From positions 64,001 through 128,000 of IMG/VR virus record IMGVR_UViG_3300037247_001786: a stretch of DNA of 64,000 nt; one strand, given 5' to 3'. Both the position numbers and the translations under genes were made by a program. Positions 29,783 to 42,455 of the stretch are shown here, piece by piece (position 1 is the first letter of the stretch; every line of letters begins with the position of its first letter). The notes under the pieces were generated by a model. The model did no database searches and had not been told where the DNA came from. It saw only the letters and a program-made list of their open reading frames with translations. The DNA comes from a virus (taxonomy: Duplodnaviria; Caudoviricetes).

Positions 29783-30619
29783 ATGCATTTTAAAATGAAT
29801 AGAAGAAACGATACAGAATTTATTAATATCAATGAATTAAAAAAGAAACAAATAGTTGATAAAATACCAGAACCTATTATCTATTCTCCAGAAGACTATG
29901 GAATCTCCGCAAAATATACAGGAGAAAAAGTGAAAATACTTATCATAGATTCAGGAGTGCCAACTCATAAAAATATTAAAAATAAAAAAGAATCACATAA
30001 TTTCGCAGACGAAAATGGAGAAACAAACGACGATACAGGACACTCCACTATAGTCTCCGGACTAATAGGCTCAAAAAATAAACAATCACTCATAGGAATA
30101 GCTTACAACTCTGAACTATTATTCGCAAAAATTATAAACAATAAAGGAGATAGCGACTACAACTCAATAGTCTCCTCTATATTGTGGGGAGTAGTCGAAG
30201 ATGTTGATATTATCGTTATGGCTCTAGGATCACAATATGACTATAAAATATTACATGATGCTATTATAAAAGCACGCAATAGGGGAATATGTATCTTCGC
30301 TGCCGCCGGAAACCATATAAACGAAGAAGGAAGCGAAATAAACTACCCAGCAAGATACCCCGAAGTCTTCTCTGTAGGAAACCTAACAAGATCAAAAAAA
30401 ACCAATCTTAAAATACTCGAAAAAGTTGACTTCGCTATCAAAAATAAAATGACATATTCCACTTATTTAAAAAATAAATATGTTAAAACTAGCGGATCAA
30501 GCATCGCAACAGCTATAGTGGCAGGGATAGGATCAATACTTATAGAAAAAAATAAAAGAACAAGTAAAAAAAATATGCCAACAAAAATCTACACTGAACT
30601 ACAAAAAATAATAGGATAA
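29783..30619 (+). CDS. Subtilisin-like serine protease (S8)
   Basis: IIDSG (Asp), GHST (His), AAGN (oxyanion Asn) and SGSSIA (Ser). Confidence 0.8.
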   Translation: MHFKMNRRNDTEFININELKKKQIVDKIPEPIIYSPEDYGISAKYTGEKVKILIIDSGVPTHKNIKNKKESHNFADENGETNDDTGHSTIVSGLIGSKNKQSLIGIAYNSELLFAKIINNKGDSDYNSIVSSILWGVVEDVDIIVMALGSQYDYKILHDAIIKARNRGICIFAAAGNHINEEGSEINYPARYPEVFSVGNLTRSKKTNLKILEKVDFAIKNKMTYSTYLKNKYVKTSGSSIATAIVAGIGSILIEKNKRTSKKNMPTKIYTELQKIIG

Positions 30620-30694
30620 GATAACAAATCAAGGACTATTTGCCAAAAAATAGAATATGATTTTAAAGCTATATATTTTAAAAGGATACCTATT

Positions 30695-31120
30695 ATGGCA
30701 GATAATGACATAGTTAAAAAAGATATTTGCGAAGAAAAACATAAATCAATTAAAACTGAAATAGTTGGACTAAAAGCAAATATAACAACTTCAAAAGAAT
30801 CACTCAGCAATAGACTAGACGAAGTCGATATCGCATTACTAGGAGATAGAACCGACCCAGGAGGACTACTTAGAGATATTATAGAAATAGAAAAAGAACT
30901 AAAAGCACATCAAGAAAAAGTGACCAAAGAACTAAGAAAACAAAATAACAAAATATATGTAGGACTAATAATACTAGCCCTAATATTCGGAGGAAAATTC
31001 CTGGGAGTAAGTATCGATACTATTAAAAACTTCTTCGAAACAAAAACAACTATTAAAAATGTACAACCAGAAAAAATAGAATTCGTATACGATATCCCTA
31101 CATGGGAGGAAAATAAATAA
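30695..31120 (+). CDS. Coiled-coil protein with one C-terminal TM segment
   Basis: IYVGLIILALIFGG hydrophobic segment after a coiled coil. Confidence 0.55.
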   Translation: MADNDIVKKDICEEKHKSIKTEIVGLKANITTSKESLSNRLDEVDIALLGDRTDPGGLLRDIIEIEKELKAHQEKVTKELRKQNNKIYVGLIILALIFGGKFLGVSIDTIKNFFETKTTIKNVQPEKIEFVYDIPTWEENK

Positions 31121-32118
31121 TGCCTACAATTACAGCAGTTACAGATAAAAGAGGGAGATTCAGACAAAACGATTGGGGAGTACTAATGCTAGCAATAACT
31201 GATAGCCACGGAAACCCAAGAGATGCCGAAGATATCTCCATAAGAATATATCAAGGATCAGATACAGTCGATTTTGATTCAGATATACCAATGCAAGTAG
31301 ATGACGGAAATTATGTATTCGAATGGGACATAGATGCAGACCAATCTACAGGAGAATATACCGCAGATTGGATGTTCACTGTAAATGATGCAGACTATAC
31401 AGAAACACAAACCTTTATCGTACATCCAGGATCAGATACCTCTTCAGCAGATATACTATATAATGAAAGATTAATAGCATTTAGAGAAGGACTAGAAAAG
31501 TTAATTATATGTGCTCAACAAATACCTGTGTATTTCGAACAAGCTAAACCATCTTTTGATAGAAAAAAATTCTCATTCTCTTATGGAAGATGGAACCAGT
31601 CACAAAGAGTTAAAGTATATAGAAATAAAAAAATTATGACCGAGGGAGTAGAAGTTAATTACTTTAAAGGAACAATAACTTTTGATGAAGAAATACTACC
31701 ACAAGATATTGTTAATGTAGATTATGACTTCAGATGGTTCACTGATGAGGAACTAGATGCATTCTTAAATAATTCACTTATGGCTTTTAATAGCTTCCCA
31801 CCTGTACAAGGATTTAATCTAATGAATGTACCAGCTATCCATATGCCAGTTATATTATATGGAGCAGCGAAAGATGCTATAAGACAAATAATGATGTGCC
31901 TTATGTTCCAAGAACCACAACAAGTATTTGGAGGACCAGAAAATGCACAAAAAGCATTCGGACAAATGGAAACTCTAAAACAAAATTATGAAAAAGATTG
32001 GGACAAATTGACCGAAGTTAAAAAATATGGAAGATATCCAAAAATGCATATGGTCGTAGTCCCAGAATATACGTTGCCTGGGGGTAGATCGAGATGGTTT
32101 CGTTATTTGTTTAAATAA
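31120..32118 (+). CDS. Putative neck/head-completion protein with N-terminal Ig-like domain
   Basis: GEYTADWMFTV Ig-like strand; FRWFTDEELDAFLN helix typical of head-tail adaptors. The function is inferred. Confidence 0.5.
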   Translation: MPTITAVTDKRGRFRQNDWGVLMLAITDSHGNPRDAEDISIRIYQGSDTVDFDSDIPMQVDDGNYVFEWDIDADQSTGEYTADWMFTVNDADYTETQTFIVHPGSDTSSADILYNERLIAFREGLEKLIICAQQIPVYFEQAKPSFDRKKFSFSYGRWNQSQRVKVYRNKKIMTEGVEVNYFKGTITFDEEILPQDIVNVDYDFRWFTDEELDAFLNNSLMAFNSFPPVQGFNLMNVPAIHMPVILYGAAKDAIRQIMMCLMFQEPQQVFGGPENAQKAFGQMETLKQNYEKDWDKLTEVKKYGRYPKMHMVVVPEYTLPGGRSRWFRYLFK

Positions 32119-32187
32119 CAGAAGTCCAGAATATAATTTTTATAAAAATAAAGGAATACTTCTTTTAATTCCGAATTATAATAGAAG

Positions 32188-32210
32188 AGTGATTATATTT
32201 ATAGTATAAT
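32188..32210 (+). promoter_or_regulatory. AGTGATT-N10-TATAAT promoter for the LAGLIDADG gene
   Basis: Same motif and spacing as other copies in the window. Confidence 0.65.
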
Positions 32211-32244
32211 CTAAATTATAATTTAATTAAAAGGAGTATTTTTT

Positions 32245-33279
32245 ATGGAACAAGTAAAAAGAGACCCAACAAAAGCAGCGAAAGCAAAAATCAAAAAAAT
32301 GTTATCTAAATACAATTGGATAATAGCGGAGCCGTATTACGACACAGTAATAGACAATGGCTCAACGGGTAAAAGTAAGACATTTATAACGCTTAGACAG
32401 TTTAAGGAGCGTATAGACGAAGGACAAAGCCTTAAAGCAATGAAGGGAGAAGGAGTCTCAAAACACTTAATCCAATTCTTTAGTAATTTTCTTCAAGGTA
32501 AGATTAAATTAACAAAATCAGATTTCGAAGATAGATATAATGAAGGAAAAGAGCTAGACGAAATTTGTGCCGAATTTAATGTCCAACGAGGAGACCTTAC
32601 TTATCTTCGGCAACTTTATGGAATTAAAAGAAAAGGGGCAACTTTTATTAAGAGAAAAAAAACAGAAGAACCTCTTACCCAAATTCAAAAAGATCTTATC
32701 TATGGTTCTTTGATGGGAGACGCAAAATCCCAGAATAATAAGTGGAATACTTCAGTCGGTTTTGGGCACGGGCGAACACAAAAAGAGTATGTAGAATGGA
32801 AGCACTCTTTACTGAAGAATATTTCTACTCCAAAAGGTATAACTAAATATTCTTACTATGACGAAAGATATAAAAAAGATTACGATACATATAGATTTTA
32901 TACTCTCGCTAATTCCGACGTTGAAGAGATATTGCATAAGTTCTATACCAGTGACGGAAAACAAATTAACAACGATATCTTAGATCATTTATCTGCTTTT
33001 TCTATTGCTGTTTGGTATATGGATGACGGATATGCAGATAAAGGGAAATACGGAATAACTAATTATATCTTTTGTACTGACTCTTTCTCCTCTGAATCCT
33101 GTGACAATATAGTTAAATGGTTCGATGAAAAATGGGGGATTAAATCCCATAAGAGAGAGCGTCAACTAAGTGATAGAATAGGATATCGAATTGTTATTAG
33201 GGCAGAATCGAGAGATAGATTCATTTCTCTAGTCGAACCTCACCTCATTCCGTCGCTTCGATACAAAATAGAATTGTAA
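32245..33279 (+). mobile_element. Free-standing LAGLIDADG homing endonuclease
   Basis: LIYGSLMGDA and SIAVWYMDDG helices; FCTDSF; ends LIPSLRYKIEL. Confidence 0.85.
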
Positions 33280-33302
33280 AGTGATTAATCTTCAAGTAAA
33301 AT
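33274..33302 (+). promoter_or_regulatory. Sigma70-like promoter with AGTGATT box
   Basis: TTGTAA-AGTGATT-N10-TAAAAT overlapping the HEG stop codon. Confidence 0.65.
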
Positions 33303-33333
33303 AGTATCTTTAATATTATCAGTAAAGGAAACT

Positions 33334-33894
33334 ATGATTATTAGTGCTTTTGTATTTGGGATTATTAACAGCGTGGTATCTACAATTATCATCTCTATTG
33401 TGGTTTATTGTTATCTTCGTTTTAAAAATTATATAAGGATTAACTCTATCATTAACATAATCAATAGAGAAAGTACAGGGAGTGGAGTCCCTAGAGACAA
33501 AAATGACAGATTAATTGTTGGAGATGTCCAATGTCATATTTCGGAAAATAGAAGCTTAGAGTTTTTTAGTGTAAAAATAAAAAATATTACGTTATATACG
33601 GACGAAGGAGGTGCTCGCCGAGATAGGGAGCCTCCTCCAAAAGTTATAGATATTTCATCTTTAGGCGTTCAAAGTATATCTACTCCCTTAAATAAACTTA
33701 ATAATAACAGGTGGGGATTAATGACTCTTAACGAGATAAAATGTTGTCCTGGTTTTTATAGTAGATTTAAATGCGTGTGTTTTGATATAGATTATATTGA
33801 TACATACGGTCAGTGCCAATTTGGATTTGTATTATTAAATAAAGAAAAATCTAAAAAAATGATAGACCACTTATCTTCTACCGATTTTCTTTAA
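33334..33894 (+). CDS. N-terminally membrane-anchored hypothetical protein
   Basis: Hydrophobic first ~28 aa; has its own promoter and terminator (moron-like). Confidence 0.6.
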   Translation: MIISAFVFGIINSVVSTIIISIVVYCYLRFKNYIRINSIINIINRESTGSGVPRDKNDRLIVGDVQCHISENRSLEFFSVKIKNITLYTDEGGARRDREPPPKVIDISSLGVQSISTPLNKLNNNRWGLMTLNEIKCCPGFYSRFKCVCFDIDYIDTYGQCQFGFVLLNKEKSKKMIDHLSSTDFL

Positions 33895-33922
33895 CAAATA
33901 AGACTAACTAGCCCAAATTTTG

Positions 33923-33974
33923 CCCAAACCGTCAAAAGTTTGGGCTTTTTTAGTGATTTAATTTCTGTTAAGAT
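33923..33974 (+). terminator. Terminator fused to an AGTGATT promoter (cassette junction)
   Basis: GCCCAAAC-CGTCAAAA-GTTTGGGC-T6, then AGTGATT-N10-TAAGAT. Confidence 0.75.
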
Positions 33975-34168
33975 GAAGTGTTAAATTTAATGGAGAAGAT
34001 ATGAACAGAGAAAAGTTTTGGGCAAAAACTTTTATTTGTAGGAGATGTGGAAGTAGGAGTAGATGTAATAGTTACTGTTTAAAATTAACATGTTCTTGTG
34101 GATACGTCCTTTTTAGGAGCAAAAAGGCAAAAAGATTAGAGTTGTAGTGGTTAAATTGGAGAAATATA

Positions 34169-34600
34169 ATGAAGTTATTTTTTAGAACTAGAAGAGAAGA
34201 TTTAAAGCTATTAAATTTTATATTAGAAGAATTAGATTTTACCCAATTCGAGTTAAATTGTTTTGACGACAAAGAGAATTGTGTCATTCGGATGGAAGAC
34301 GCTTCTTTCCGCGATATTTTTAATTTTATGGATAATTTATTTTATAGTTATTCTGGTGCGGATGAAATTACGTTTCCTATGGGTTCTGTTTTAATATATC
34401 ATAAAAAAGATAGGAATATTTATATTGATTTTAAAGATTTCGAGGGGCAATCAGATATTCGTCCTTTTGATGAGGCGATTAATCCTGATTACGGATTAGA
34501 TATTGATGATTTTGACATTGATAGTGGTAATTATTTTATCGCTATAAAGTCGCCTGGTGGTTTTTATTGTTATCAATTATCTGGTGACCCTTATAAGTAA
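34169..34600 (+). CDS. Hypothetical protein
   Basis: GGAG SD; 143 aa. Confidence 0.6.
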   Translation: MKLFFRTRREDLKLLNFILEELDFTQFELNCFDDKENCVIRMEDASFRDIFNFMDNLFYSYSGADEITFPMGSVLIYHKKDRNIYIDFKDFEGQSDIRPFDEAINPDYGLDIDDFDIDSGNYFIAIKSPGGFYCYQLSGDPYK

Positions 34601-34628
34601 TTCCCAGTATGCGATACAAGATAGGCAA
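34600..34628 (+). repeat. 29-bp direct repeat, copy 1 (encodes IPSMRYKIG)
   Basis: ATTCCCAGTATGCGATACAAGATAGGCAA, identical to 36151-36179. Confidence 0.9.
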
Positions 34629-34638
34629 GTGATTTTCC

Positions 34639-34667
34639 TTTCAAAGTGATTATAGATTCACTATAAT
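34639..34667 (+). promoter_or_regulatory. AGTGATT-type promoter
   Basis: TTTCAA-AGTGATT-N10-TATAAT, followed by GAGGAGG SD. Confidence 0.7.
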
Positions 34668-34693
34668 ATGATCTTAATTTTGAGGAGGAAAAG

Positions 34694-36175
34694 GTGAGAG
34701 AGATATTAGATGATATAGATTTATTTGCGGCAAGTAGACAAGTAGTAGAATATATAATAGCCGGGAATGGAAAGCGAGGAAAATGCCTATCTATTACGCA
34801 TCCGGAAATTGCTAAAGAGTGGGATTTTACTAAAAATAAATTAACACCAAAAGAGGTTACTTATGGGACTAGTAAAAAAGTCTATTGGATTTGTCCTAAA
34901 GGTCATGAATTTGATGCGTTAATAAATAACAGGGCAAGAAGAGGCGATGGTTGTCCTTGTTGTTCTGGGCATAAAGTACATAAAGATAATTGTTTGGCTA
35001 CCCTTAGGCCCGATTTGGCTAAAGAATGGCATCCAACTTTAAACGATTTAACACCAGAAGAAGTTACTTGTGGTAACAATAAAAAAGTGTGGTGGATATG
35101 TCCTAAAGGACATGAATATGAGATAAAGATAAGCCATAGATGTTCGAGAAATCAGGGTTGTCATTATTGTTCTGGGAGGAAAGTTTGTCAAGACAATTGT
35201 TTGGCTACCCTTAGTCCCGATTTGGCTAAAGAATGGCATCCAACTTTAAACGATTTAACACCAGAAGAAGTTACTTGTGGTAGCAAGAAAAAAGTCTATT
35301 GGATTTGCCCTAAAGGGCATGAATATGACGCGACAATAAATAACAGGACTAACGGAGCTAATTGCTCCTATTGTTCCGGACAAAGAGTGCATAAAGATAA
35401 TTGTTTAGCTACTCTCAAACCCGATTTAGCTAAAGAATGGGATTTCATTAAAAATGATTTAACTCCAGAAGAAGTTACTTGTGGTAGCCCTAAAAAAGTC
35501 TATTGGATTTGTCCTAAAGGACATGAATATGACTCGACAATAAGTAGCAGGACTAACGGAACTAATTGCCCCTATTGTTCTGGACAAAGAGTTTGTCAAG
35601 ACAATTGTTTGGCTACCCTTAGGCCCGATTTGGCTAAAGAATGGCATCCAACTTTAAACGATTTAACACCAGAAGAAGTTACTTGCGGTAGCCCTAAAAA
35701 AGTGTGGTGGATATGCCCTAAAGGGCATGAATATGACGCATCTATATGGAAAAGGGCAAGGCGAAGGCAGGGGTGCCGTATCTGTTCCTATGGCAAATCT
35801 GAAAAAGAGGTAGGAGATATTTTAAAAATATATTTCGACAAGTGGAAAATTTTAAGACAGAAAAAAATATGGGATAGCTATAAAAGGTATAATCATAAAA
35901 GATATTGTGATTATTGGTTAGAGAGAAATGGGGCGAAAATTATGGTAGAATATGATGGCAGGCAACATTTTGAACCAGTTAGATTTGCAAATTTTTCTTG
36001 GAAAAAAGCACAAAAAAATCTTGAAAAAACTCAAATAAAAGACAAACTTGACGCAAAATTTTGCAAAGAGCATGGAATTATTCTTCATCGGATCAAATAT
36101 AATGAAGATAAAGAAGAGTCTATTAAGAGACTAAAAGCAAGTTTAGAGTTATTCCCAGTATGCGATACAAGATAG
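34694..36175 (+). CDS. Zinc-ribbon repeat (DUF4379-like x5) protein with C-terminal PD-(D/E)XK-like nuclease
   Basis: Five KEW....N.LTPEEVT.GS.KKV.W.CPKGHEY......R......C..C repeats; C-terminal CDYW...MVEYDGRQHF. Confidence 0.8.
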   Translation: MREILDDIDLFAASRQVVEYIIAGNGKRGKCLSITHPEIAKEWDFTKNKLTPKEVTYGTSKKVYWICPKGHEFDALINNRARRGDGCPCCSGHKVHKDNCLATLRPDLAKEWHPTLNDLTPEEVTCGNNKKVWWICPKGHEYEIKISHRCSRNQGCHYCSGRKVCQDNCLATLSPDLAKEWHPTLNDLTPEEVTCGSKKKVYWICPKGHEYDATINNRTNGANCSYCSGQRVHKDNCLATLKPDLAKEWDFIKNDLTPEEVTCGSPKKVYWICPKGHEYDSTISSRTNGTNCPYCSGQRVCQDNCLATLRPDLAKEWHPTLNDLTPEEVTCGSPKKVWWICPKGHEYDASIWKRARRRQGCRICSYGKSEKEVGDILKIYFDKWKILRQKKIWDSYKRYNHKRYCDYWLERNGAKIMVEYDGRQHFEPVRFANFSWKKAQKNLEKTQIKDKLDAKFCKEHGIILHRIKYNEDKEESIKRLKASLELFPVCDTR

Positions 36176-36234
36176 GCAAATAGAGGTTTTCTTTTATTTT
36201 CGCGGAATAAATAGTTATGAACTGGTATAAACAA
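36151..36234 (+). repeat. Junction repeat: 29-bp copy 2 and 75-bp copy 1
   Basis: 36160-36234 matches 37640-37714 at 74 of 75 positions. Confidence 0.9.
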
Positions 36235-37041
36235 ATTAAAATATCTTATACAAGAGCGAAGCAATGGGATCAAGAAACTTTAGACAGAATTGGGCAGTTG
36301 TTTTTAGAGGGTAATAATATATCTCAAGTTGCTAAAATAATGAATATTCCTCGTACAACCCTAACCTCTTTAAACAAAAAATACAAATGGAAAGAATCTA
36401 GAGTTTTTTCTCAAGACGAATTAGATACAATCGGAGAATTAATATCAGAAGGTAATTCTTTAACCGAAATTGCAAATATGCTTAATATCCCTCGTTCGAC
36501 ATTGTCTTGGATGAGAGGAAAATACAATTGGGAAAGTTTTGACGAACAAAAACGAAAATGGTGGAAACAATTAGCCGATTCTTATCTAGAGGGATTAAGC
36601 TTTGATGATGTAGCCGCCAAATTTAACACGACTAACATAAGTGTTCGTAATGCATTAATATTTTTAGGTTTAAAAGATAAGATACGGTCTCAATCAGAGA
36701 TTTCTAAACAAAAATGGCAAGATGAAGATTTTAGAAATAAGATGATGGAATACCATGGAAGTGATGAAAATAGAAAAAGGGTAAGTGAATGGTCTAAGAA
36801 GAATTGGCAAAATCCTGAAATGAGAAAGAGGTTGACAGATGCTCCTACTCAATGGTGGGCAGAGCGAGGAGGACTAGAGGGTTATTTAACATCTATTCCT
36901 AAAGAGCAAGCTATTACTTATTTAAATGGACTTGTCGCTAGAAAACATACTGAAAATCCTGATATGGCATTTGCTATTAAAAATAAATATATGCAAATAA
37001 TAGAGCGAGCCAATTCTGAACCTCAACTACCTACTATATAA
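36217..37041 (+). CDS. Multi-HTH protein with NUMOD3-like basic tail (starts MNWYK)
   Basis: Three helix-turn-helix-like units (ISQVAKIMNIPRTTL, LTEIANMLNIPRSTL, FDDVAAKFNTT) and a SK.KWQDE.FR-type tail. Confidence 0.7.
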   Translation: MNWYKQIKISYTRAKQWDQETLDRIGQLFLEGNNISQVAKIMNIPRTTLTSLNKKYKWKESRVFSQDELDTIGELISEGNSLTEIANMLNIPRSTLSWMRGKYNWESFDEQKRKWWKQLADSYLEGLSFDDVAAKFNTTNISVRNALIFLGLKDKIRSQSEISKQKWQDEDFRNKMMEYHGSDENRKRVSEWSKKNWQNPEMRKRLTDAPTQWWAERGGLEGYLTSIPKEQAITYLNGLVARKHTENPDMAFAIKNKYMQIIERANSEPQLPTI

Positions 37042-37045
37042 ACTA

Positions 37046-37075
37046 GCCCAAACCCTCAAAAGTTTGGGCTTTTTT
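37046..37075 (+). terminator. Rho-independent terminator
   Basis: GCCCAAAC-CCTCAAAA-GTTTGGGC plus T-run; nearly identical to the copy at 33923. Confidence 0.8.
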
Positions 37076-37136
37076 CTTGGACAATATACTGTCGTACCTC
37101 GTCATAGCGTGCCGTAGCTAGGAGTAAGTGATTTCT

Positions 37137-37165
37137 TTGCAAAGTGATTAAGATATCGCTATAAT
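37137..37165 (+). promoter_or_regulatory. Sigma70-like promoter with AGTGATT box
   Basis: TTGCAA-N17 (starting AGTGATT)-TATAAT. Confidence 0.75.
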
Positions 37166-37193
37166 ATATCTTTAATTATTTTGAGGAGAGAGG

Positions 37194-37655
37194 ATGCCAG
37201 AGATATTAGGCGATATAGATATGTTCGCGGGAGAAAGAAAGAAAAAATGCACTTATTGCAAAAGATTTAAAAGCTTAGATAAATTTGGAAAAGATAAAGG
37301 GCAATCTTCTGGATTAAAATGCAGATGTAAGGGATGTATGAATCTTATTCAAAGGCAGGACTATGCTAATAGTAGTAGACGCTACGAAGATATGACCAAG
37401 AGAGCTTTGAAACGCCTTTATGGAATATCTTTAGAGCAATATAAAAAAATGGCTGATGCACAAATGAACTGTTGTGCTATCTGTGGCAAACATCAAAAGA
37501 ATTTTAATCATCGCTTAGCCGTTGACCATTGCCATGAAACTGGAAAAATACGAGGGCTACTATGTGCTAAATGCAATACGGGTATCGGAAATTTTAAAGA
37601 CGATATTCACTTATTAGGACAAGCCATAGAGTATCTTCGATGCGATACAAGATAG
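37194..37655 (+). CDS. Recombination endonuclease VII-family (His-Me finger) nuclease
   Basis: CAICGK...LAVDHCHETGKIRGLLCAKCNTGIG...AIEYL. Confidence 0.85.
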   Translation: MPEILGDIDMFAGERKKKCTYCKRFKSLDKFGKDKGQSSGLKCRCKGCMNLIQRQDYANSSRRYEDMTKRALKRLYGISLEQYKKMADAQMNCCAICGKHQKNFNHRLAVDHCHETGKIRGLLCAKCNTGIGNFKDDIHLLGQAIEYLRCDTR

Positions 37656-37714
37656 GCAAATAGAGGTTTTCTTTTATTTTCGCGGAATAAATAGTTATGA
37701 ATTGGTATAAACAA
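37640..37714 (+). repeat. 75-bp junction repeat, copy 2
   Basis: Spans the nuclease stop, the intergenic promoter and the first six codons of the next gene. Confidence 0.9.
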
Positions 37715-38353
37715 TCACAATCTATAGGTAAGAGGTGGACATTAGAAGACCTACAGGTAATAAGAGAATTACTCGAAGAGGGGCATTCCTCAAGGCAAAT
37801 AGCTAAATTATTTGAAGTAGCCCACTCTACAATAAATACGTTAAACAATAAATACAATTTAAAATCTTTTCCTAAAAAACAATTGAACAGAATTAAACCT
37901 ATGGAAGATAAGATAAAAGAACTCTATCTATTACCTCCTGATGGTCAAGGTTTATCTGCTATGGAAGTTGGAAGACAATTAGATATTTCTCCTACTACTG
38001 TTCGTAAAGTTATAGGAAATTTAGGGCTAGATGTTAGAGGGGGGGCTGAAGCTTGGGATGATGATAGAAGAGAGCAAACAAGTGAAAGATTTAAAAAGCA
38101 ATGGGAAGACCCGGAACATAAGGAAATGATGAGAGGAGTTTCGGAACAGTATTGGAACAATCCCGCAAATAGGGAAAATGCGAGTCTTCGAGAAAAAGCA
38201 AGATGGGAAGATGACCCTACGATTAGAGAAAGGGCTGTTAAGAAAAGAGAAGAATATTGGGCAAATTATCCTGGTGGTTTTAATGCTTGGATACAATCCT
38301 TTCCTCCTGAGAAGCAAAAAGAAATTCTTAATGCGATAAACGCTCCAAATTAA
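37697..38353 (+). CDS. Multi-HTH protein with NUMOD3-like tail (starts MNWYK); paralog of 36217
   Basis: SSRQIAKLFEVAHSTI and SAMEVGRQLDISPTTV HTH units; ..QWEDPEHKEMM tail. Confidence 0.7.
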   Translation: MNWYKQSQSIGKRWTLEDLQVIRELLEEGHSSRQIAKLFEVAHSTINTLNNKYNLKSFPKKQLNRIKPMEDKIKELYLLPPDGQGLSAMEVGRQLDISPTTVRKVIGNLGLDVRGGAEAWDDDRREQTSERFKKQWEDPEHKEMMRGVSEQYWNNPANRENASLREKARWEDDPTIRERAVKKREEYWANYPGGFNAWIQSFPPEKQKEILNAINAPN

Positions 38354-38361
38354 TTAACTTC

Positions 38362-38415
38362 AAGCCCATCTCTTATTGAGTTGGGCTTTTTTAGTGATTT
38401 AATTTCTGTTAAGAT
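38362..38415 (+). terminator. Terminator fused to an AGTGATT promoter (cassette junction)
   Basis: AGCCCA...TGGGCT-T-run, then TGGGCTTTTTTAGTGATTTAATTTCTGTTAAGATGAAGT as at 33941-33979. Confidence 0.75.
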
Positions 38416-38438
38416 GAAGTATTAAATGGAGCAAAGAT

Positions 38439-38909
38439 ATGGGATATAGAAATTATTTATATAAGATAAAAAAAGAAGATTATGTTAAGGGGCGAGAGTT
38501 TTTCGATTATGACGATGATATTGCGACTGAGATATATGAGCTTGGCAAATATCTTGATAACGAAGTTAGAGAAGGTCTCTCTGTTATAGATGAAAATAAC
38601 TGCCCAGATACTGAATGCTTGTTAATTGATATAGAATCGGTACTTTGCATCATCTCTCATTATGCTCAAAGGCATCTTAATTTTCTCAATACTTTAAAAA
38701 GAGGAAAGAACCCTCAATATACTATGGAATCACATCTTGATGACCAGATTCGAAAATGGTCTCGCCCAGATGACTTTGTTTATGATTTAGATAGAGGTAG
38801 AGAAAATATAGTAAACAGTTGGGAATTTCAATATGAGATTTTTGATTTAGTTCGTATTTATAAGACATTTGATACTGAAAATTATTTTTTAATATGGGCA
38901 GGATATTAG
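38439..38909 (+). CDS. Hypothetical protein
   Basis: GGAG SD; 156 aa. Confidence 0.6.
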   Translation: MGYRNYLYKIKKEDYVKGREFFDYDDDIATEIYELGKYLDNEVREGLSVIDENNCPDTECLLIDIESVLCIISHYAQRHLNFLNTLKRGKNPQYTMESHLDDQIRKWSRPDDFVYDLDRGRENIVNSWEFQYEIFDLVRIYKTFDTENYFLIWAGY

Positions 38910-39025
38910 AATGAAGAAAAAATGTATTTGTTCTCGTTGTAAGAGTATATGGACTCGGCAATCAAGGAGTTGCATAAAAATAACTTGCACTTGCGGAAAA
39001 GTGGTTATGGACAGGACAAAAGAAT

Positions 39026-39292
39026 ATGAATCGAGAAGAAGACATGAGATTTAAACCTGGGCAAAAAGTAAAACTTAAAAAAAGTGCTTTAAGTAGTCAG
39101 CAAGATGGAGTTGTATCTAATTTATATCCTCCTTATGTAGCGACTATTAGTTTCGTTACCCCTGACCCTCATTCTGGTGATTATATGTACGAGTTTAAGG
39201 AATGCCCTTGGGGTTGGTACGAGAGTGAGGTAGATTGTCTTTATAGGTGGGAAAAGGCATCTAATATATTTGCGATAATAGATTTAGATTAA
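39026..39292 (+). CDS. Hypothetical protein, SH3/KOW-like (FKPGQKVKL)
   Basis: ORF track; ends FAIIDLD. Confidence 0.5.
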   Translation: MNREEDMRFKPGQKVKLKKSALSSQQDGVVSNLYPPYVATISFVTPDPHSGDYMYEFKECPWGWYESEVDCLYRWEKASNIFAIIDLD

Positions 39293-39312
39293 TATTTAGC
39301 GGGAGAAAAGTT

Positions 39313-39762
39313 ATGAAAATAGTGATAAATAGTTGTTATGGGGGTTTTGGGCTTTCTTTAAAAGCTCAAGAAGAATATTTAAAATTGTCTGGTAAGGAAG
39401 CTTATTTTTATAAGATGTCTGAATATAAAAATTTTAAAGATGGTCCAAATGAATATAAAAAAGAAGAATACAAAAGGACATCTTCTAAATCTAATTCTCT
39501 TTGGTCTCAAACATTCACAAAAGATTTTGGAGAAACTTTCGAAAGTATTCCAGACGAAGATTATAGAAAATATATCTTTAATGACTATAAAATAGAAAGA
39601 GATGATCCTATTTTAGTATCTGTTGTAGAGAGTTTGGGTAAAGAGGCTAACGGAGCTTGTGCCGAACTGTCTATTGTAGAGGTGCCAGATGATATTAAAT
39701 GGTTTATAGATGAATATGACGGACAGGAACATGTAGCTGAAGAACATAGTACTTGGTATTAG
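39313..39762 (+). CDS. Conserved-looking hypothetical phage protein
   Basis: MKIVINSCYGGFGLS...RDDP.LV.VVE.LG..ANG..A.L.IVEVPDD..W.IDEYDG.E, a pattern familiar from diverse phages. Confidence 0.65.
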   Translation: MKIVINSCYGGFGLSLKAQEEYLKLSGKEAYFYKMSEYKNFKDGPNEYKKEEYKRTSSKSNSLWSQTFTKDFGETFESIPDEDYRKYIFNDYKIERDDPILVSVVESLGKEANGACAELSIVEVPDDIKWFIDEYDGQEHVAEEHSTWY

Positions 39763-39953
39763 GAGATATATTAATGAGTACTTTAACTGAAACATTATTG
39801 TGTGTATTAATGACAGTGGCAATATTTTGTATTTTCTATACTACTTTATTTATATTTGGTATTTTTCTTAATATAGCGATGATATCTTATATTTTAGGTA
39901 TTATAATTTTACTTCTTTTTAGATATAATATGACAGGAGATGATTGTGGGTAA
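39753..39953 (+). CDS. Small two-TM membrane protein
   Basis: Two hydrophobic segments; GGAG SD before an internal ATG. Confidence 0.5.
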   Translation: MVLGDILMSTLTETLLCVLMTVAIFCIFYTTLFIFGIFLNIAMISYILGIIILLLFRYNMTGDDCG

Positions 39954-40032
39954 AGAAATTATGATGAGGATGATGCAGGGACAGATAGAGTCGAATTAGC
40001 GACAGATGCTTAATAGTTATTTTTAAAATATT

Positions 40033-40062
40033 AAAGCCTTCTTTTAAAGAGGGCTTTTTTTT
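40033..40062 (+). terminator. Rho-independent terminator
   Basis: AAAGCCTTCT-TTTAA-AGAGGGCTTT plus T-run. Confidence 0.8.
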
Positions 40063-40127
40063 CGCGAAAATTTAATTGTAAGTGATTCTATTTTATGTTA
40101 TATTGTCATTTTAATTAAGGAAACAGT

Positions 40128-40391
40128 ATGAAGATTAATCAATATAATTTTTATTTCCCGTCTAAACTTTTAAAAGAAGTATTACCTGGTGAAGTGTTTT
40201 ATTTTACTGCTCCATGTAGTGGAACTCCTTATACTCGGATAGGAGCTTCTATTGATCATACAAAATTTTACATTCTAGACATAGGATGTAGTGAATTCTT
40301 CGAACCAAAAGAAGAAGATATGGAGAAAAGGGTTTATCTTATAGATGGTGTTTTTAACTGCACAATGCTTCCCCGCCCTGAAGACAAGTAG
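40128..40391 (+). CDS. Hypothetical protein
   Basis: Preceded by TTGTA-AGTGATT...TATATT promoter (40076-40104) and AAGGA SD. Confidence 0.55.
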   Translation: MKINQYNFYFPSKLLKEVLPGEVFYFTAPCSGTPYTRIGASIDHTKFYILDIGCSEFFEPKEEDMEKRVYLIDGVFNCTMLPRPEDK

Positions 40392-40424
40392 AGGATAATT
40401 GCCTTCTTTGTAGAACTATCTATT

Positions 40425-40853
40425 ATGAGTAGTTTTACAGATAATCTAATAGTTAGCCCTCTAAAAGACAGTAAAAGGTGGGTTGTAAGAAAAGAATTTT
40501 CTTATGATGTTGGTTTCGAAGGTAGTAATAATACCATAGTTGTCCCAGCGGGATTTATTACCGACTATGCAAGTATCCCGCAATTTTTATGGAGTTTATT
40601 TCCTAATGTTGGGAAATACACTTCTGCCGCCGTGATCCATGATTTTTTGTATTACTCTCACGAAAGAACAAGAAAGGAAGCTGACGATATATTTAAGGAG
40701 GGAATGATAGTTTTAGGGGTAGAGGAGTGGAAAGCCAATTTATTTTATAGTGCTGTTAGAACTTTTGGTGAAGGAGCTTATAAAAATAATAAAAAATACA
40801 TTATTAATTTTTTAGATGAATATATAAAAATACAAAAAATGGAGAAATTATGA
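40425..40853 (+). CDS. DUF1353 family protein
   Basis: VVPAGFITDYASIP...AAVIHDFLY...RKEADDIF. Confidence 0.85.
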   Translation: MSSFTDNLIVSPLKDSKRWVVRKEFSYDVGFEGSNNTIVVPAGFITDYASIPQFLWSLFPNVGKYTSAAVIHDFLYYSHERTRKEADDIFKEGMIVLGVEEWKANLFYSAVRTFGEGAYKNNKKYIINFLDEYIKIQKMEKL

Positions 40854-41149
40854 GTTTTACATTGCAAAAAATAGGGTCAGGATTATGGATCGCGGCATTA
40901 GCATTGTTATTTTTAAAAGAAATAGCATTTTGTTATTTAGCTTTATTGGGTGTGGGGATCATTGACCTAATTTTAGTTAAGAAAAAAGAAAAAACTATCA
41001 CTCAGTGGTATAGAGCAAAATTACCTAAATTAGTAGATACTATTTTAACTGTAGGATTGGTAGGTTTATTCGTATGGGCTGGAGGGCATATCGCTGGCTT
41101 ATATTTTTTAATGGGAACAATTAATGGTCACTTAAATGGCGATTGGTAG
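40850..41149 (+). CDS. Multi-TM membrane protein
   Basis: Four hydrophobic segments. Confidence 0.55.
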   Translation: MSFTLQKIGSGLWIAALALLFLKEIAFCYLALLGVGIIDLILVKKKEKTITQWYRAKLPKLVDTILTVGLVGLFVWAGGHIAGLYFLMGTINGHLNGDW

Positions 41150-41219
41150 GACAATAGTGATGAAGAGTTAAGGGTAGTAGGGTCAATAGAGGATCGTTTT
41201 GAGATATTAGATTTATGAT

Positions 41220-41248
41220 AAGATGGTTAGCCAATAGCCATCTTTTTT
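41220..41248. terminator. Terminator between convergent gene blocks
   Basis: AAGATGGTTA/TAGCCATCTT hairpin with a T-run on the + strand. Confidence 0.65.
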
Positions 41249-41252
41249 ATTT

Positions 41253-42455
41253 TTAACCATGTTCATGTGGATAATTTTCTAAACTCCTATTTTCTACCAA
41301 TGATCTATCGGCAGTTGCAACAGTTCTACTTTCCAGCCTTCCTCCAACAGTTGCTCTAAATAATAAAAGATCTGACATATCATCAGTTACAATGACTCTT
41401 AATTCGTCATCATTTTCTCCCTTTAGAACTAATGGGGCATAATTTACTATTCTACATTGCAAGAAAGTAGTTGTATCATCTCCCCATATCTTTACATGAG
41501 TATTTGGTATACTTAGTAAATCTCCTATTGATCTTGTTGGAAGAGAAAAGACTATAACTCCATCAACGATTCTTTGATATATTACTCCTGATGCTAATGT
41601 TATTCCTAAGAATTTTGTATAATCAAGGTAGGAGACTGTAGGATGGTAAGTAGGATCTCCTGCGACAACTGGAAGAGCATTAGGAGCTGTTGCTATTGGA
41701 GCCGCTATAGTAAGGGTAATTTCATCAACATGATGCCACTGATCTCTTAATGGTACGATATTGAATATTTTAGGACCACCTCCTACTGTTGACCCCTCTA
41801 TTTGTAAATCATCTATATAGAACGTTGGACCTAATCCGCTTCTAACTTCTATTGTGACTCTAAGAGCATCTATTGTTAATCCTATTAATGCCATATCTAA
41901 CAAAGGTATAGTTAATTTTTGCCAATTTCCAGTTGAAGCAGGTGTAAAATAATTTTCTAACAACACTCTTGTTCCTACATCTACTGCTCCTCCTGTGTCC
42001 CATCCATAAATACTTATGTCATCTCCTGCTGCCCAATTTGCTGTAACATATACGAACAGAGTTATAGAAGAATAGGCAGATAGGGTTATATTTCCTGAAG
42101 GATTTAAAAATTGTATGGTATCACCAGGCTGGGAATTGATAGATTGTAGACTTTGAGTTCCTGTATTAGCCTGAGTTATACTAGTTAGATCCCAGTTTGG
42201 TCCATTTTCTATAGAACCAGTCCAATATGGGTTATCTCCTCCATCGTAGACTTCTTCTATGACCGCTCCTACTCCTGAGCTTGCATCTATATTCATGCCT
42301 ATTCCTAATTCGGAATTGGAAAAGAATTGGGTCAAGTTAGTATATTCTTTCAGATCGCGTGTGGATACAATAAGACCATTTTTTTCTCCTGGAGAGACAT
42401 CTATGTGAGCTTTATTATTATTCTTAGGATCTGTAATATAACTTTCTACGCCCAT
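41253..42455 (-). CDS. Putative structural protein with a carbohydrate-binding-like beta-sandwich
   Basis: WQKLTIPL.D...IDALRV...TFYIDDLQIEG pattern; N-terminus related to two neighbouring genes. Confidence 0.5.
   Translation of the reverse strand: MGVESYITDPKNNNKAHIDVSPGEKNGLIVSTRDLKEYTNLTQFFSNSELGIGMNIDASSGVGAVIEEVYDGGDNPYWTGSIENGPNWDLTSITQANTGTQSLQSINSQPGDTIQFLNPSGNITLSAYSSITLFVYVTANWAAGDDISIYGWDTGGAVDVGTRVLLENYFTPASTGNWQKLTIPLLDMALIGLTIDALRVTIEVRSGLGPTFYIDDLQIEGSTVGGGPKIFNIVPLRDQWHHVDEITLTIAAPIATAPNALPVVAGDPTYHPTVSYLDYTKFLGITLASGVIYQRIVDGVIVFSLPTRSIGDLLSIPNTHVKIWGDDTTTFLQCRIVNYAPLVLKGENDDELRVIVTDDMSDLLLFRATVGGRLESRTVATADRSLVENRSLENYPHEHG

What the first reader, a model, noticed from the sequence alone, without database searches (positions are those of the whole stretch)
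33247..37714. Gene cassettes joined by orphaned 3' ends of a LAGLIDADG gene
Seen: the HEG ends ATT CCG TCG CTT CGA TAC AAA ATA GAA TTG TAA (IPSLRYKIEL). The 29-bp repeat at 34600 and 36151 reads ATT CCC AGT ATG CGA TAC AAG ATA GGC AA (IPSMRYKIGK then stop), and a shorter copy occurs at 37640. So three downstream junctions are the C-terminal coding sequence of another LAGLIDADG allele. The two nuclease genes now stop inside this junction in a different frame (both end CDTR). The exact 29-bp pair brackets a promoter plus the zinc-ribbon nuclease like a target duplication. Inference: cargo has been inserted or recombined repeatedly at the HEG 3' end, making an expanding cassette stack.
Basis: partly seen in the sequence, partly recalled or inferred. 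Interest (0 to 1): 0.8.

Follow-up and report, generated by a model that had tools for sequence, protein, structure and literature searches.

The report
Orphaned gene tails mark stacked phage cargo
In a 461-kb marine-sediment phage and many of its relatives, new genes are repeatedly slotted in at the very end of one conserved nuclease gene, and each event leaves the gene's old 30-letter tail behind as a fossil, so the genome keeps a readable record of how its accessory genes piled up.

Summary
ATTCCCAGTATGCGATACAAGATAGGCAA is exact at 34600 and 36151. Its 20-bp core recurs at 37640. There are no other copies in the 461-kb genome.

In one frame the repeat reads (V)IPSMRYKIGK*. The closest relatives' LAGLIDADG genes end IPSMRYKIGL* and IIPSMRYKIGEK*, and they differ from the repeat almost only at synonymous sites. 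The repeats are therefore orphaned 3' ends of other alleles of the LAGLIDADG gene at 32245-33279.

That gene is not a recent invader. It follows the same 332-aa gene in 30 of 32 related loci. Everything to its right is hypervariable.

Orphaned tails occur downstream of it in 14 of 33 related loci (about 11 distinct), mostly starting within a few codons of the IIPSM motif. A related pair (L093 and L130) differs by a 1-kb cassette with its own extra orphan. On a tree of 89 homologs, tail type switches at least 9-12 times.

Both nuclease ORFs in the window lost their native ends at the junction; relatives keep theirs.

Best reading: cargo arrives serially, each time with a replacement gene tail, as with fungal mitochondrial mobile ORFs. 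I found no report of this for phages. Which nuclease makes the initiating break is inferred, not shown.

Several first-stage notes of this scan describe the same stretch.

The parts
32188..32215 (+). Promoter-like site of the AGTGATT-N10-TAnnAT class, upstream of the LAGLIDADG gene
   Evidence: The motif occurs 35 times in the genome against 1.35 expected. Six copies lie between 32188 and 38393.
32245..33279 (+). Resident LAGLIDADG_2 gene (344 aa), the fixed left border of the accessory island
   Evidence: PF03161, E 3.9e-33. It follows the 332-aa gene homolog in 30 of 32 related loci. The acidic residues of both motifs (GDA and DDG) are kept in the homologs that could be read in one frame; 3 of 47 could not.
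33247..33279 (+). Resident 3' end, reading IPSLRYKIEL*
   Evidence: By my count from the sequences printed, it is 27/33 identical to the L091 resident tail, about the same as the gene-wide 80%.
33280..33894 (+). Cassette: promoter at 33280 plus orf186 (N-terminal hydrophobic segment, no family match)
33922..33986 (+). Terminator T1 plus promoter P_A. It is a junction repeat also found at 38381-38427 (47 bp, 98%), and its terminator stem recurs at 37046-37075 (30 bp, 97%).
   Evidence: The same terminator occurs at 97% identity in L091.
34001..34600 (+). Cargo: orf48 (zinc ribbon, paralog of 38911-39054) and orf143
34596..34628 (+). Orphan tail J1. It reads VIPSMRYKIGK*, and its stop codon TGA lies inside the next AGTGATT promoter motif.
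34629..34693 (+). Promoter and leader P_B, 71-77% identical to 37132-37230
34694..36175 (+). Zinc-ribbon nuclease gene (493 aa): five DUF4379 repeats plus a C-terminal nuclease-like domain. Its last 8 codons (LFPVCDTR*) are read from J2.
   Evidence: The L014 homolog (42% identity) has its own start and stop.
36147..36179 (+). Orphan tail J2 (VIPSMRYKIGK*)
36160..36234 (+). 75-bp repeat, copy 1: J core, 37-nt HTH leader and the MNWYKQ start
   Evidence: L091 has the same leader (79% identity) in front of its MNWYKQ gene, preceded there by a terminator rather than by J.
36217..37041 (+). Multi-HTH DNA-binding gene (274 aa, MNWYKQ start)
   Evidence: It matches the DNA-binding parts of phage HNH endonuclease families phrog_59 and phrog_8446.
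37046..37075 (+). Terminator T2
37128..37193 (+). Promoter and leader P_B'
37194..37655 (+). Endonuclease VII-type gene (153 aa). Its last 4 codons (CDTR*) are read from J3.
   Evidence: PF02945, E 5e-25. The 76%-identical homolog P0002 ends natively ...AIEYLKSY* and lies 149 nt after a LAGLIDADG fusion gene in another contig.
37631..37659 (+). Orphan tail J3 (VSSMRYKIGK*). The exact 20-bp core is 37640-37659, and the serine codon is TCG as in resident-type alleles.
37640..37714 (+). 75-bp repeat, copy 2
37697..38353 (+). Multi-HTH DNA-binding gene (218 aa, MNWYKQ start). Its homolog in L093 starts 2 nt after the LAGLIDADG stop.
38362..38427 (+). Terminator T3 plus promoter P_A', the right-hand copy of the 47-bp junction repeat

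Best explanation
The three J repeats are orphaned 3' ends of earlier or foreign alleles of the resident LAGLIDADG gene. They encode its last 10-11 codons plus the stop.

In this clade of huge phages the LAGLIDADG gene is the fixed left border of a hypervariable accessory island. New cargo arrives by recombination with co-infecting relatives. It enters at, or a few codons before, the conserved ...HIIPSM.YK... coding stretch about 35 nt before the stop. It comes together with a replacement tail that keeps the LAGLIDADG ORF intact. The previous tail is pushed downstream of the new cargo and stays there as an untranslated relic, or as a borrowed ORF end or ribosome-binding site. Repeating this stacks cargo, with the newest next to the gene. 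Once an orphan exists, the cargo is flanked by two sequences homologous to a recipient's single tail. It can then move by ordinary double-strand-break repair (homing) or by Campbell-type recombination.

In the window, two nuclease cassettes were joined to such tails by illegitimate junctions that removed their own last codons and stop codons. Both therefore run into J in the +1 frame and end CDTR*.

Shown: the origin of J; the conserved left flank and variable right flank; recurrence of orphans; clustering of orphan starts; tail switching; loss of the native nuclease ends.

Inferred: that a site-specific double-strand break starts the events; which enzyme makes it (the LAGLIDADG protein or a cargo nuclease); and the order of events.
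For: Origin of J:
- J reads (V)IPSMRYKIGK*.
- Resident tails of relatives read IPSMRYKIGL* (L091/L092; 83% aa identity to the window's LAGLIDADG protein; 80% nt) and IIPSMRYKIGEK* (L009).
- J1 and the L091 resident tail differ in 4 of 9 codons, all synonymous, including AGT/TCG for serine.
- In a motif-selected set of 10 short tails, 150 of 212 codon differences are synonymous in this frame, against 2 of 184 and 10 of 185 in the other two frames. That set was chosen by peptide motif, so the count is biased.

Conserved left flank, variable right flank:
- The 332-aa gene precedes the LAGLIDADG gene in 30 of 32 loci.
- L091 shares no cargo with the window between the LAGLIDADG stop and the homologs of 39313-39762.

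Recurrence of orphans:
- Orphan tails lie downstream of the resident gene in 14 of 33 loci with at least 1 kb of downstream sequence, about 11 distinct.
- All motif hits lie on the + strand downstream of the gene.
- In the looser search, multi-query hits (E 0.03 or better, 3-46 queries) lie on the + strand at the gene. All are downstream except L101/L102, where the hit is the tail of an extra LAGLIDADG gene just upstream. Stray hits elsewhere or on the - strand have E at least 0.03 and 1-3 queries.
- L009 has two orphans, each bracketing a small ORF, one of which ends inside the orphan in the +1 frame.

Orphan starts:
- Every partial orphan is 36 aa or shorter, out of about 340.
- About 9-10 start within 3 codons of the P of IPSM.

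Pair differing by one cassette:
- L130 equals L093 plus a 1-kb ORF and an extra orphan tail. The HTH module downstream is identical from its ATG onward, while the LAGLIDADG bodies are only 74% identical.

Foreign tail, native orphan:
- L098 (P0152, long tail) nests among short-tail sisters, and its orphans are short-tail.
- Tail type needs at least 20 changes on an 89-sequence tree built from the bodies alone. Well-supported branches force 9-12 of them. Shuffled labels need 23 on average.

First-cargo position of both nucleases in relatives, with native ends:
- L014 carries the zinc-ribbon nuclease homolog 590 bp after the LAGLIDADG stop.
- P0002 (Endonuclease VII type) lies 149 nt after a LAGLIDADG fusion gene and ends ...EYLKSY*.

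Known precedent for the architecture: PMC3630166.
Against: - No cleavage data exist, and no empty and filled pair is near-identical across the whole LAGLIDADG gene, so a site-specific break is not shown.
- Short orphans could partly reflect survivorship. Long duplications would be deleted by homologous recombination.
- In the window the resident tail is as similar to L091 as the rest of the gene (27/33 by my count, against 80%). It does not look foreign, so the J copies may have come in with the cargo block rather than being this lineage's displaced tails.
- J1 and J2 are identical, unlike the diverged tail and orphan pairs of relatives. This fits recent homologous or Campbell-type recombination, or gene conversion, better than import of a foreign tail.
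- No J lies upstream of the Endonuclease VII cassette.
- Most cargo in relatives encodes no recognisable nuclease.
Confidence: 0.72

Rival explanations
1. PeSL-like shuffling. The island is a set of promoter- and terminator-bounded cassettes that recombine at any short conserved junction motif. J is just one such junction, kept because it carries expression signals (stop codon, ribosome-binding site, start codon or promoter edge). The 3' end of the LAGLIDADG gene is not a special entry site.
For: - Other junction repeats exist and are far more similar than the cargo between them: T1 and T2 (30 bp, 97%), T1+P_A and T3+P_A' (47 bp, 98%), P_B and P_B'.
- The T1/T2 terminator is 97% identical in L091, whose LAGLIDADG gene is only 80% identical.
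- Six promoters of one class lie within 6.2 kb.
- In L009, L097 and L098 the orphan supplies AGGAG plus an overlapping start codon for the next ORF.
- In J1 the stop codon is part of the next promoter motif.
- PeSL cassettes and their excised circles are documented for T4-type phages (PMC2839356, PMC4122927).
Against: - J varies like coding sequence in the LAGLIDADG frame, not like a regulatory motif.
- J2 and J3 are followed by a 37-nt leader rather than a start codon.
- Orphans are found only downstream of this one gene. None occurs elsewhere in the 461-kb genome.
- Orphan starts cluster at one codon stretch.
- This rival complements the main explanation more than it excludes it.
Confidence: 0.18
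2. Transposition-type insertion. The zinc-ribbon nuclease cassette inserted into a single J site, and the 29-bp direct repeat is a target-site duplication from a staggered cut.
For: An exact 29-bp direct repeat brackets promoter plus gene.
Against: - From general knowledge, 29-33 bp is far longer than known target-site duplications.
- No transposase or recombinase domain matched any of the ORFs scanned between 31120 and 39762. The small ORFs were not all scanned.
- No inverted repeats flank the cassette.
- In relatives the two tail copies differ at many synonymous sites, so they were not made by duplicating one target.
- The third copy has a different left flank.
Confidence: 0.04
3. Decayed cargo homing endonuclease genes. 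Each cassette once carried its own complete LAGLIDADG gene, as in the tandem genes of L095, L101 and L102. The body of that gene was later replaced by another nuclease, leaving only the shared head and the last 10 codons.
For: - Whole extra LAGLIDADG genes do occur as neighbours: L095 has a tandem copy, and L101 and L102 have an upstream paralog ending ...SSMTYKIGEK*.
- The two nuclease ORFs share promoter, first 12 codons and tail.
Against: - The shared head MPE(I/V)L.D(I/V)DMF is native to the Endonuclease VII lineage (P0002), not to any LAGLIDADG homolog seen.
- No internal LAGLIDADG remnants were found in the cassettes.
Confidence: 0.06

Closest known systems
Mobile ORF (mORF) elements with C-terminal replacement in fungal mitochondria: Allomyces macrogynus atp6; Glomus atp6, atp9, cox2 and nad3; Rhizopus atp9; Mortierella cox2 (PMC3630166). 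Also the cob and atp6 C-terminal duplications in Endoconidiophora (PMC6279837).
   Same: - A host gene keeps an in-frame replacement C-terminus.
- The inserted DNA follows it.
- The native C-terminus persists downstream as an orphan.
- The two copies differ mostly at synonymous sites and point to transfer between relatives.
- Endonuclease genes are among the inserted DNA.
- In-frame fusions of cargo to the host gene occur. Here these are the LAGLIDADG-methyltransferase-like fusions in L010, L109-L113 and L116, each followed directly by an orphan.
   Different: - The setting is a phage, not an organelle.
- The host gene is itself a LAGLIDADG nuclease gene.
- Orphans are very short (10-36 codons).
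- Up to three orphans lie in series, recording stacked events.
- Most cargo is not an endonuclease.
- Orphans are reused as ORF ends, ribosome-binding sites or promoter edges.
- The cutting enzyme is unknown.
PeSL (promoter-early stem-loop) cassettes of T4-type phages (PMC2839356, PMC4122927)
   Same: The region is hyperplastic and built of small ORFs bounded by near-identical promoter and terminator motifs. The junctions are more conserved than the cargo.
   Different: J is a relic of coding sequence, not a promoter or stem-loop. The island is anchored to one gene end. Circles have not been observed.
Intronless homing and marker exclusion by free-standing phage endonucleases (T4 SegF, SegG, MobE; reviewed in PMC2988022, PMC2790892)
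   Same: Free-standing nuclease genes sit beside a conserved target gene in a phage, and flanking DNA is expected to be co-converted between co-infecting relatives.
   Different: As far as I know, classical intronless homing uses homology on both sides and leaves no duplicated gene end. No cleavage site is known here.
Tandem accretion of integrative elements at the 3' ends of tRNA and other genes (attL and attR carrying the duplicated gene end). This comparison rests on my own knowledge.
   Same: The incoming element restores the gene's 3' end and leaves a partial direct repeat. Repeated events form arrays.
   Different: No integrase matched any of the ORFs scanned in the island, and the repeats are from diverged alleles rather than identical att cores.

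Membership tests
mORF-type C-terminal replacement elements | The host gene's 3' end is present twice: in frame with the gene, and as an orphan downstream of inserted DNA | tested here: met
   The window has three orphans. About 11 other distinct related loci also have them.
mORF-type C-terminal replacement elements | The in-frame and orphan copies come from different alleles (diverged, mostly synonymous). The orphan matches close relatives, and the in-frame tail is foreign. | tested here: inconclusive
   Met in L098: a long resident tail among short-tail sisters, with short-tail orphans. Met in L009: 4 of 4 differences are synonymous. Not met for the window's resident tail, which matches L091 about as well as the rest of the gene does (27/33 by my count; 80%).
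mORF-type C-terminal replacement elements | The inserted DNA encodes the endonuclease that cleaves the empty site | not testable with these tools
   Nuclease genes are cargo in the window, L014, L091 (BsoBI-like, E 1e-30) and the P0002 contig. Many cassettes have none.
mORF-type C-terminal replacement elements | Related genomes have empty sites | tested here: met
   L091 lacks all of the window's cargo and has no orphans. L093 lacks the extra 1-kb cassette and orphan that L130 has.
Mobile LAGLIDADG homing endonuclease gene | Two LAGLIDADG motifs with their acidic residues | tested here: met
   PF03161. GDA and DDG are kept in the homologs that could be read in one frame; 3 of 47 could not.
Mobile LAGLIDADG homing endonuclease gene | Sporadic presence or absence among close relatives at the insertion site | tested here: not met
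   The gene is present at the same position in 30 of 32 loci that have upstream sequence. Its divergence is similar to that of its neighbour genes.
PeSL-type regulatory cassettes | A repeated composite promoter plus stem-loop motif flanks the ORFs | tested here: inconclusive
   Met by T1+P_A and T3+P_A' and by T1 and T2. J itself has no significant fold (z about 0) and is coding-derived.
Transposon with target-site duplication | Transposase, terminal inverted repeats and a short duplication | tested here: not met
   No transposase domain matched any ORF scanned. No flanking inverted repeats were found. The repeat is 29-33 bp.
Integron | Tyrosine recombinase IntI plus attI and attC sites with a folded bottom strand | tested here: not met
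   No recombinase domain matched any ORF scanned. No structure was found in J when folded as RNA on the + strand; the bottom strand and DNA parameters were not tested.
Group I intron or intein context | A ribozyme or splicing domain interrupts the host gene | tested here: not met
   No Rfam family matched in 30000-42000 at E up to 0.1, apart from one chance-level leader hit. No intein domain was found.

The most novel reading that the evidence does not exclude
The conserved LAGLIDADG enzyme acts as the engine of a gene-capture platform. It cuts rival alleles of its own 3' end during co-infection. Repair copies its tail plus adjacent cargo into the rival genome, so the island grows by one cassette per event. 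This would be a homing-endonuclease-anchored, integron-like cassette accumulator specific to a clade of huge phages, with the orphan tails as its att-like scars.
Probability: 0.2. Interest if true: 0.85.

Novelty: new variant of a known kind. Interest (0 to 1): 0.62.

Why it matters
How phages gain accessory genes is usually inferred from mosaic boundaries that leave no scar. Here each acquisition leaves a dated, allele-specific relic at a defined position. Across dozens of related huge phages the order, source and frequency of cargo gain can therefore be read directly.

The cargo includes nucleases, a restriction-enzyme homolog, methyltransferase-like fusions and DNA-binding proteins. These are the kind of genes used in phage-phage and phage-host conflict.

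The finding extends a mechanism known from fungal mitochondria to phages. It also gives a concrete, testable target for the nucleases involved: the about 30-bp HIIPSM.YK coding stretch.

Tried and rejected
- **Near-identical DNA in the phage collection:** no match. Exact J patterns in IMG/VR gave only chance 17-mers, or only the L009 contig.
- **Reads:** only one run holds the region, as Logan contigs rather than raw reads. Depth is even at about 12-14. Contigs break at the repeats longer than 31 bp. No joints or circles were seen, and the two loose ends belong to other MNWYKQ genes. This cannot show or exclude excised circles or cassette-less variants. The slightly lower depth of the 36192-37669 contig (11.7 against 13-14) is within noise.
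- **RNA structure in J and the 75-bp repeat:** z-scores of -0.19, 0.07 and -0.87. No Rfam family matched.
- **A fourth, decayed orphan upstream of the Endonuclease VII promoter (37076-37128):** the local alignment is no better than shuffles (p about 0.1).
- **orf143 against orf156, and orf186 against L014 orf190:** no homology.
- **C-terminal domain of the zinc-ribbon nuclease against PDB sequences:** nothing found. Only a weak DUF2726 hit appeared (E 0.024).
- **Complex prediction of the Endonuclease VII protein with its HTH neighbour:** no verdict.
- **DNA of the 71.8-kb contig carrying P0002:** could not be fetched. A viral-contig search with P0002 found nothing useful.
- **The MRYKIGD... 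ORF start in L008,** which resembles the J core over 18 nt: judged coincidental, because a paralog reads MKYKVGD.
- **Synonymous-change count over ten tails:** biased, because the sequences were picked by peptide motif. Only the J1 against L091 comparison is free of that bias.

Full report
**What is there.** The window is bases 64001-128000 of a complete 460,978-bp virus record with direct terminal repeats and 34% G+C. One run, from a marine-sediment metagenome, holds the region.

The LAGLIDADG_2 ORF at 32245-33279 ends IPSLRYKIEL*. Downstream, ATTCCCAGTATGCGATACAAGATAGGCAA is exact at 34600 and 36151, and extends to 33 bp with one mismatch. Its 20-bp core recurs at 37640. No shuffle of the window gave any copy, and there is none elsewhere in the genome.

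The zinc-ribbon nuclease ORF (34694-36175) and the Endonuclease VII-type ORF (37194-37655) both end CDTR* inside the repeat, one base out of the LAGLIDADG frame.

Copies 2 and 3 belong to a 75-bp repeat at 99% identity. It continues through a 37-nt leader into the MNWYKQ start of two multi-HTH genes that are otherwise 27% identical.

A separately deposited 4.7-kb contig (L137) is identical to 32258-36967 and spans copies 1 and 2. Logan contigs of the one run cover the region at even depth.

**The repeat is a gene tail.** In the LAGLIDADG frame the copies read VIPSMRYKIGK*, VIPSMRYKIGK* and VSSMRYKIGK*.

I fetched relatives through the upstream 332-aa gene and through the LAGLIDADG protein itself. 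The closest relatives are L091 and L092, at 80% nt and 83% aa identity. They end ATT CCT TCG ATG CGA TAC AAA ATA GGA CTA TAA, which reads IPSMRYKIGL*. L009 ends IIPSMRYKIGEK*.

J1 differs from the L091 tail in 4 of 9 codons, and all four changes are synonymous, including AGT against TCG for serine. That is the signature of sequence that evolved as coding DNA in this frame. J1 was defined by repetition and the L091 tail by whole-gene homology, so this comparison is not circular. The larger count is biased by how its sequences were selected.

**The gene is a fixed landmark and its right side is fluid.** In 30 of 32 related loci with enough upstream sequence, the LAGLIDADG gene directly follows the homolog of the 332-aa gene. 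Its divergence (43-53% aa in the first four relatives) parallels that of its neighbours. The acidic residues of both LAGLIDADG motifs are kept in the homologs that could be read in one frame; 3 of 47 could not. So it is a core, probably active nuclease gene, not a sporadic invader.

To its right nothing is conserved. L091 carries a BsoBI-like restriction endonuclease homolog (E 1e-30) and a dozen unrelated small ORFs before synteny resumes at the homolog of 39313-39762. Other relatives carry different sets again. Many have a methyltransferase-like domain fused in frame to the LAGLIDADG C-terminus.

**Orphans recur across the clade.** I ran six-frame motif and tblastn scans of 46 related loci.

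- In the motif scan every hit lies on the + strand downstream of the gene.
- In the looser tblastn scan the multi-query hits (E 0.03 or better, 3-46 queries) lie on the + strand at the gene. All are downstream except L101 and L102, where the hit is the tail of an extra LAGLIDADG gene just upstream.
- Stray hits elsewhere or on the - strand have E of at least 0.03 and 1-3 queries.
- Orphans occur in 14 of 33 loci with at least 1 kb downstream, about 11 distinct after removing near-duplicates.

Individual loci:

- L009 has two orphans, each bracketing a small ORF. One ORF starts on the orphan's TAATG, and the other ends inside the next orphan in the +1 frame, just as the window's nucleases do.
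- L097 has two or three orphans, one of them fused in frame as the C-terminus of an unrelated ORF.
- L098 has two.
- L010 has a frameshifted LIRPHII.SMLYKVD directly after its LAGLIDADG-methyltransferase-like fusion.
- L109-L113 and L116 show the same arrangement.
- L134 and L101 share an older event.
- L095 has a complete second LAGLIDADG gene in tandem, and L101 and L102 have an extra paralog upstream.

**Where orphans start.** Every partial orphan is 36 aa or shorter, out of about 340. About 9-10 start within three codons of the P in IIPSM. The others start 4-18 codons upstream of it. This fits a preferred entry point, or descent from a few insertion events at one position followed by homing. 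Survivorship of short repeats may also contribute.

**A pair differing by one cassette, and tail switching.** L093 has the LAGLIDADG gene followed 2 nt later by an MNWYK multi-HTH gene, then an orphan. L130 has the same HTH module, identical from its ATG onward. But between gene and module it carries a 1-kb ORF that runs into an additional orphan (SPHLIPSLQYRVSYSAYQKRNSAEKVE*). The two LAGLIDADG bodies are only 74% identical.

On a maximum-likelihood tree of 89 LAGLIDADG bodies with the tails removed, tail type (short, long or fused) needs at least 20 changes. Well-supported branches force 9-12 of them. Shuffled labels need 23 on average. Tails have therefore been exchanged or remodelled many times independently of the gene body.

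L098 is the clearest case. Its resident tail is long, its nearest sisters are short-tailed, and its orphans are short-tailed. That matches the foreign-tail, native-orphan logic described for Allomyces and Glomus mitochondrial genes (PMC3630166).

**The window's cassettes.** Both nucleases occupy the position next to the LAGLIDADG gene in other relatives, and there they keep their own ends.

- L014 has a 42%-identical zinc-ribbon nuclease 590 bp after the LAGLIDADG stop, with its own start (MKKTVADYPELVKQWHP) and its own stop.
- P0002 is a 76%-identical Endonuclease VII-type protein. It lies 149 nt after a 701-aa LAGLIDADG fusion gene, in a contig with the same 243-, 278- and 332-aa upstream genes. 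It ends ...AIEYLKSY*, where the window reads ...AIEYLRCDTR*.

The window's ORFs therefore lost their last codons at an illegitimate junction with J.

The shared head MPE(I/V)L.D(I/V)DMF is native to the Endonuclease VII lineage. The zinc-ribbon gene has acquired that promoter and head, so it has a chimeric 5' end.

J1 is followed directly by an AGTGATT promoter, with the stop codon TGA inside the motif. The resident tail, and the L091 tail with AGTGCTT, are followed by such a motif in the same way. So J1 plus P_B was once contiguous with a full LAGLIDADG gene.

The promoter class AGTGATT-N10-TAnnAT occurs 35 times in the genome against 1.35 expected, and six copies lie within 32188-38393. Terminator and promoter junctions are also repeated at 97-98% identity, and one terminator is 97% identical in L091. 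PeSL-like shuffling at regulatory junctions (PMC2839356, PMC4122927) is therefore also at work.

**What remains open.**

- The identity of J1 and J2, and the 75-bp identity of J2 and J3, point to recent homologous or Campbell-type recombination, or to gene conversion. They do not look like imports of diverged tails.
- The window's resident tail looks native (27/33 identical to the L091 tail by my count, against 80% gene-wide).
- Which nuclease, if any, initiates the events cannot be decided here.
- No RNA structure, RNA family, transposase or recombinase explains J.

**Novelty.** The architecture is known from fungal mitochondria (PMC3630166, PMC6279837). My searches of the held literature found no description of it in phages. 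Three features are new: the phage setting, a nuclease gene as the host gene, and serial stacking with reuse of the orphans. I class it as a new variant of a known kind.

Noticed in passing
window 36217, 37697; genome-wide at window coordinates -57320, -56887, -56694, -56204, -27351, -24863, 202480, 374045; L007 12773, 13901, 16721; L091 4312, 5354; L093 9071: Ten genes of this genome, and several in relatives, begin MNWYK(Q/I/K/M/F)... on otherwise unrelated proteins, with the DNA of the start conserved as well. Two recombination boundaries coincide with it. The window's 75-bp repeat ends just after MNWYKQ, and L093 and L130 become 100% identical exactly from this ATG. It could be a targeting peptide or a recombination handle. 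No paper in the library contains the motif.
   Followed up: partly
L010 3654-5705; L099, L103, L108-L113, L115-L117, L124; the P0002 contig (701 aa): In many relatives the LAGLIDADG gene is fused in frame to a C-terminal domain of about 340 aa with weak methyltransferase matches (Cons_hypoth95, Methyltransf_15, N6_N4_Mtase). It is often followed directly by an orphan tail.
   Followed up: partly
L091 717-1772: In the closest relative, the first cargo gene after the LAGLIDADG gene is a BsoBI-like restriction endonuclease homolog (PF09194, E 1.1e-30).
   Followed up: no
L009 12886-14520; L008 14303-15614; L098 9964-10346: Runs of small ORFs end with the same peptide ...(S/N)RF(E/D)ILDL*, with the DNA conserved (GATTTTAGATTTAT) and the next start codon overlapping the stop. 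This is a second kind of repeated gene-end junction in these islands.
   Followed up: no
window 34751-35776: The zinc-ribbon nuclease holds five tandem DUF4379 units of 204-207 nt that are 66-95% identical at the DNA level. The family is very large: more than 5,400 database hits at E up to 1e-30, some with DUF559/Vsr-like or DUF2726 domains.
   Followed up: no
L009 / L011 (548-kb contig): NCBI lists the LAGLIDADG homolog of this related 548-kb viral contig as a protein of a 'Candidatus Asgardarchaeia archaeon' MAG (P0132). The window has sigma-70-like -10 boxes, Shine-Dalgarno sites and intrinsic terminators, which look bacterial. This may be a binning artefact or a host clue.
   Followed up: no
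L095 4481-5563; L101 6654-7388; L102 574-1344: Whole additional LAGLIDADG genes sit next to the conserved one. L095 has a tandem second copy (40% identity to the window's). L101 and L102 have a 28%-identical paralog upstream that ends ...SSMTYKIGEK*.
   Followed up: partly
L106 3368-4563 against L107 9370-10380: Two contigs that are 98-99.9% identical differ by a duplication of about 200 bp and a replacement of about 430 bp, a few hundred bases downstream of the LAGLIDADG stop. This is cassette-level polymorphism within a population.
   Followed up: no
window 34001-34147, 38911-39054; L091 3218-3364: Small CxxC...CxC zinc-ribbon ORFs of 47-48 aa recur as cargo. The two in the window are 46% identical over 28 aa, and each lies in a cassette that starts with the repeated P_A promoter.
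   Followed up: partly
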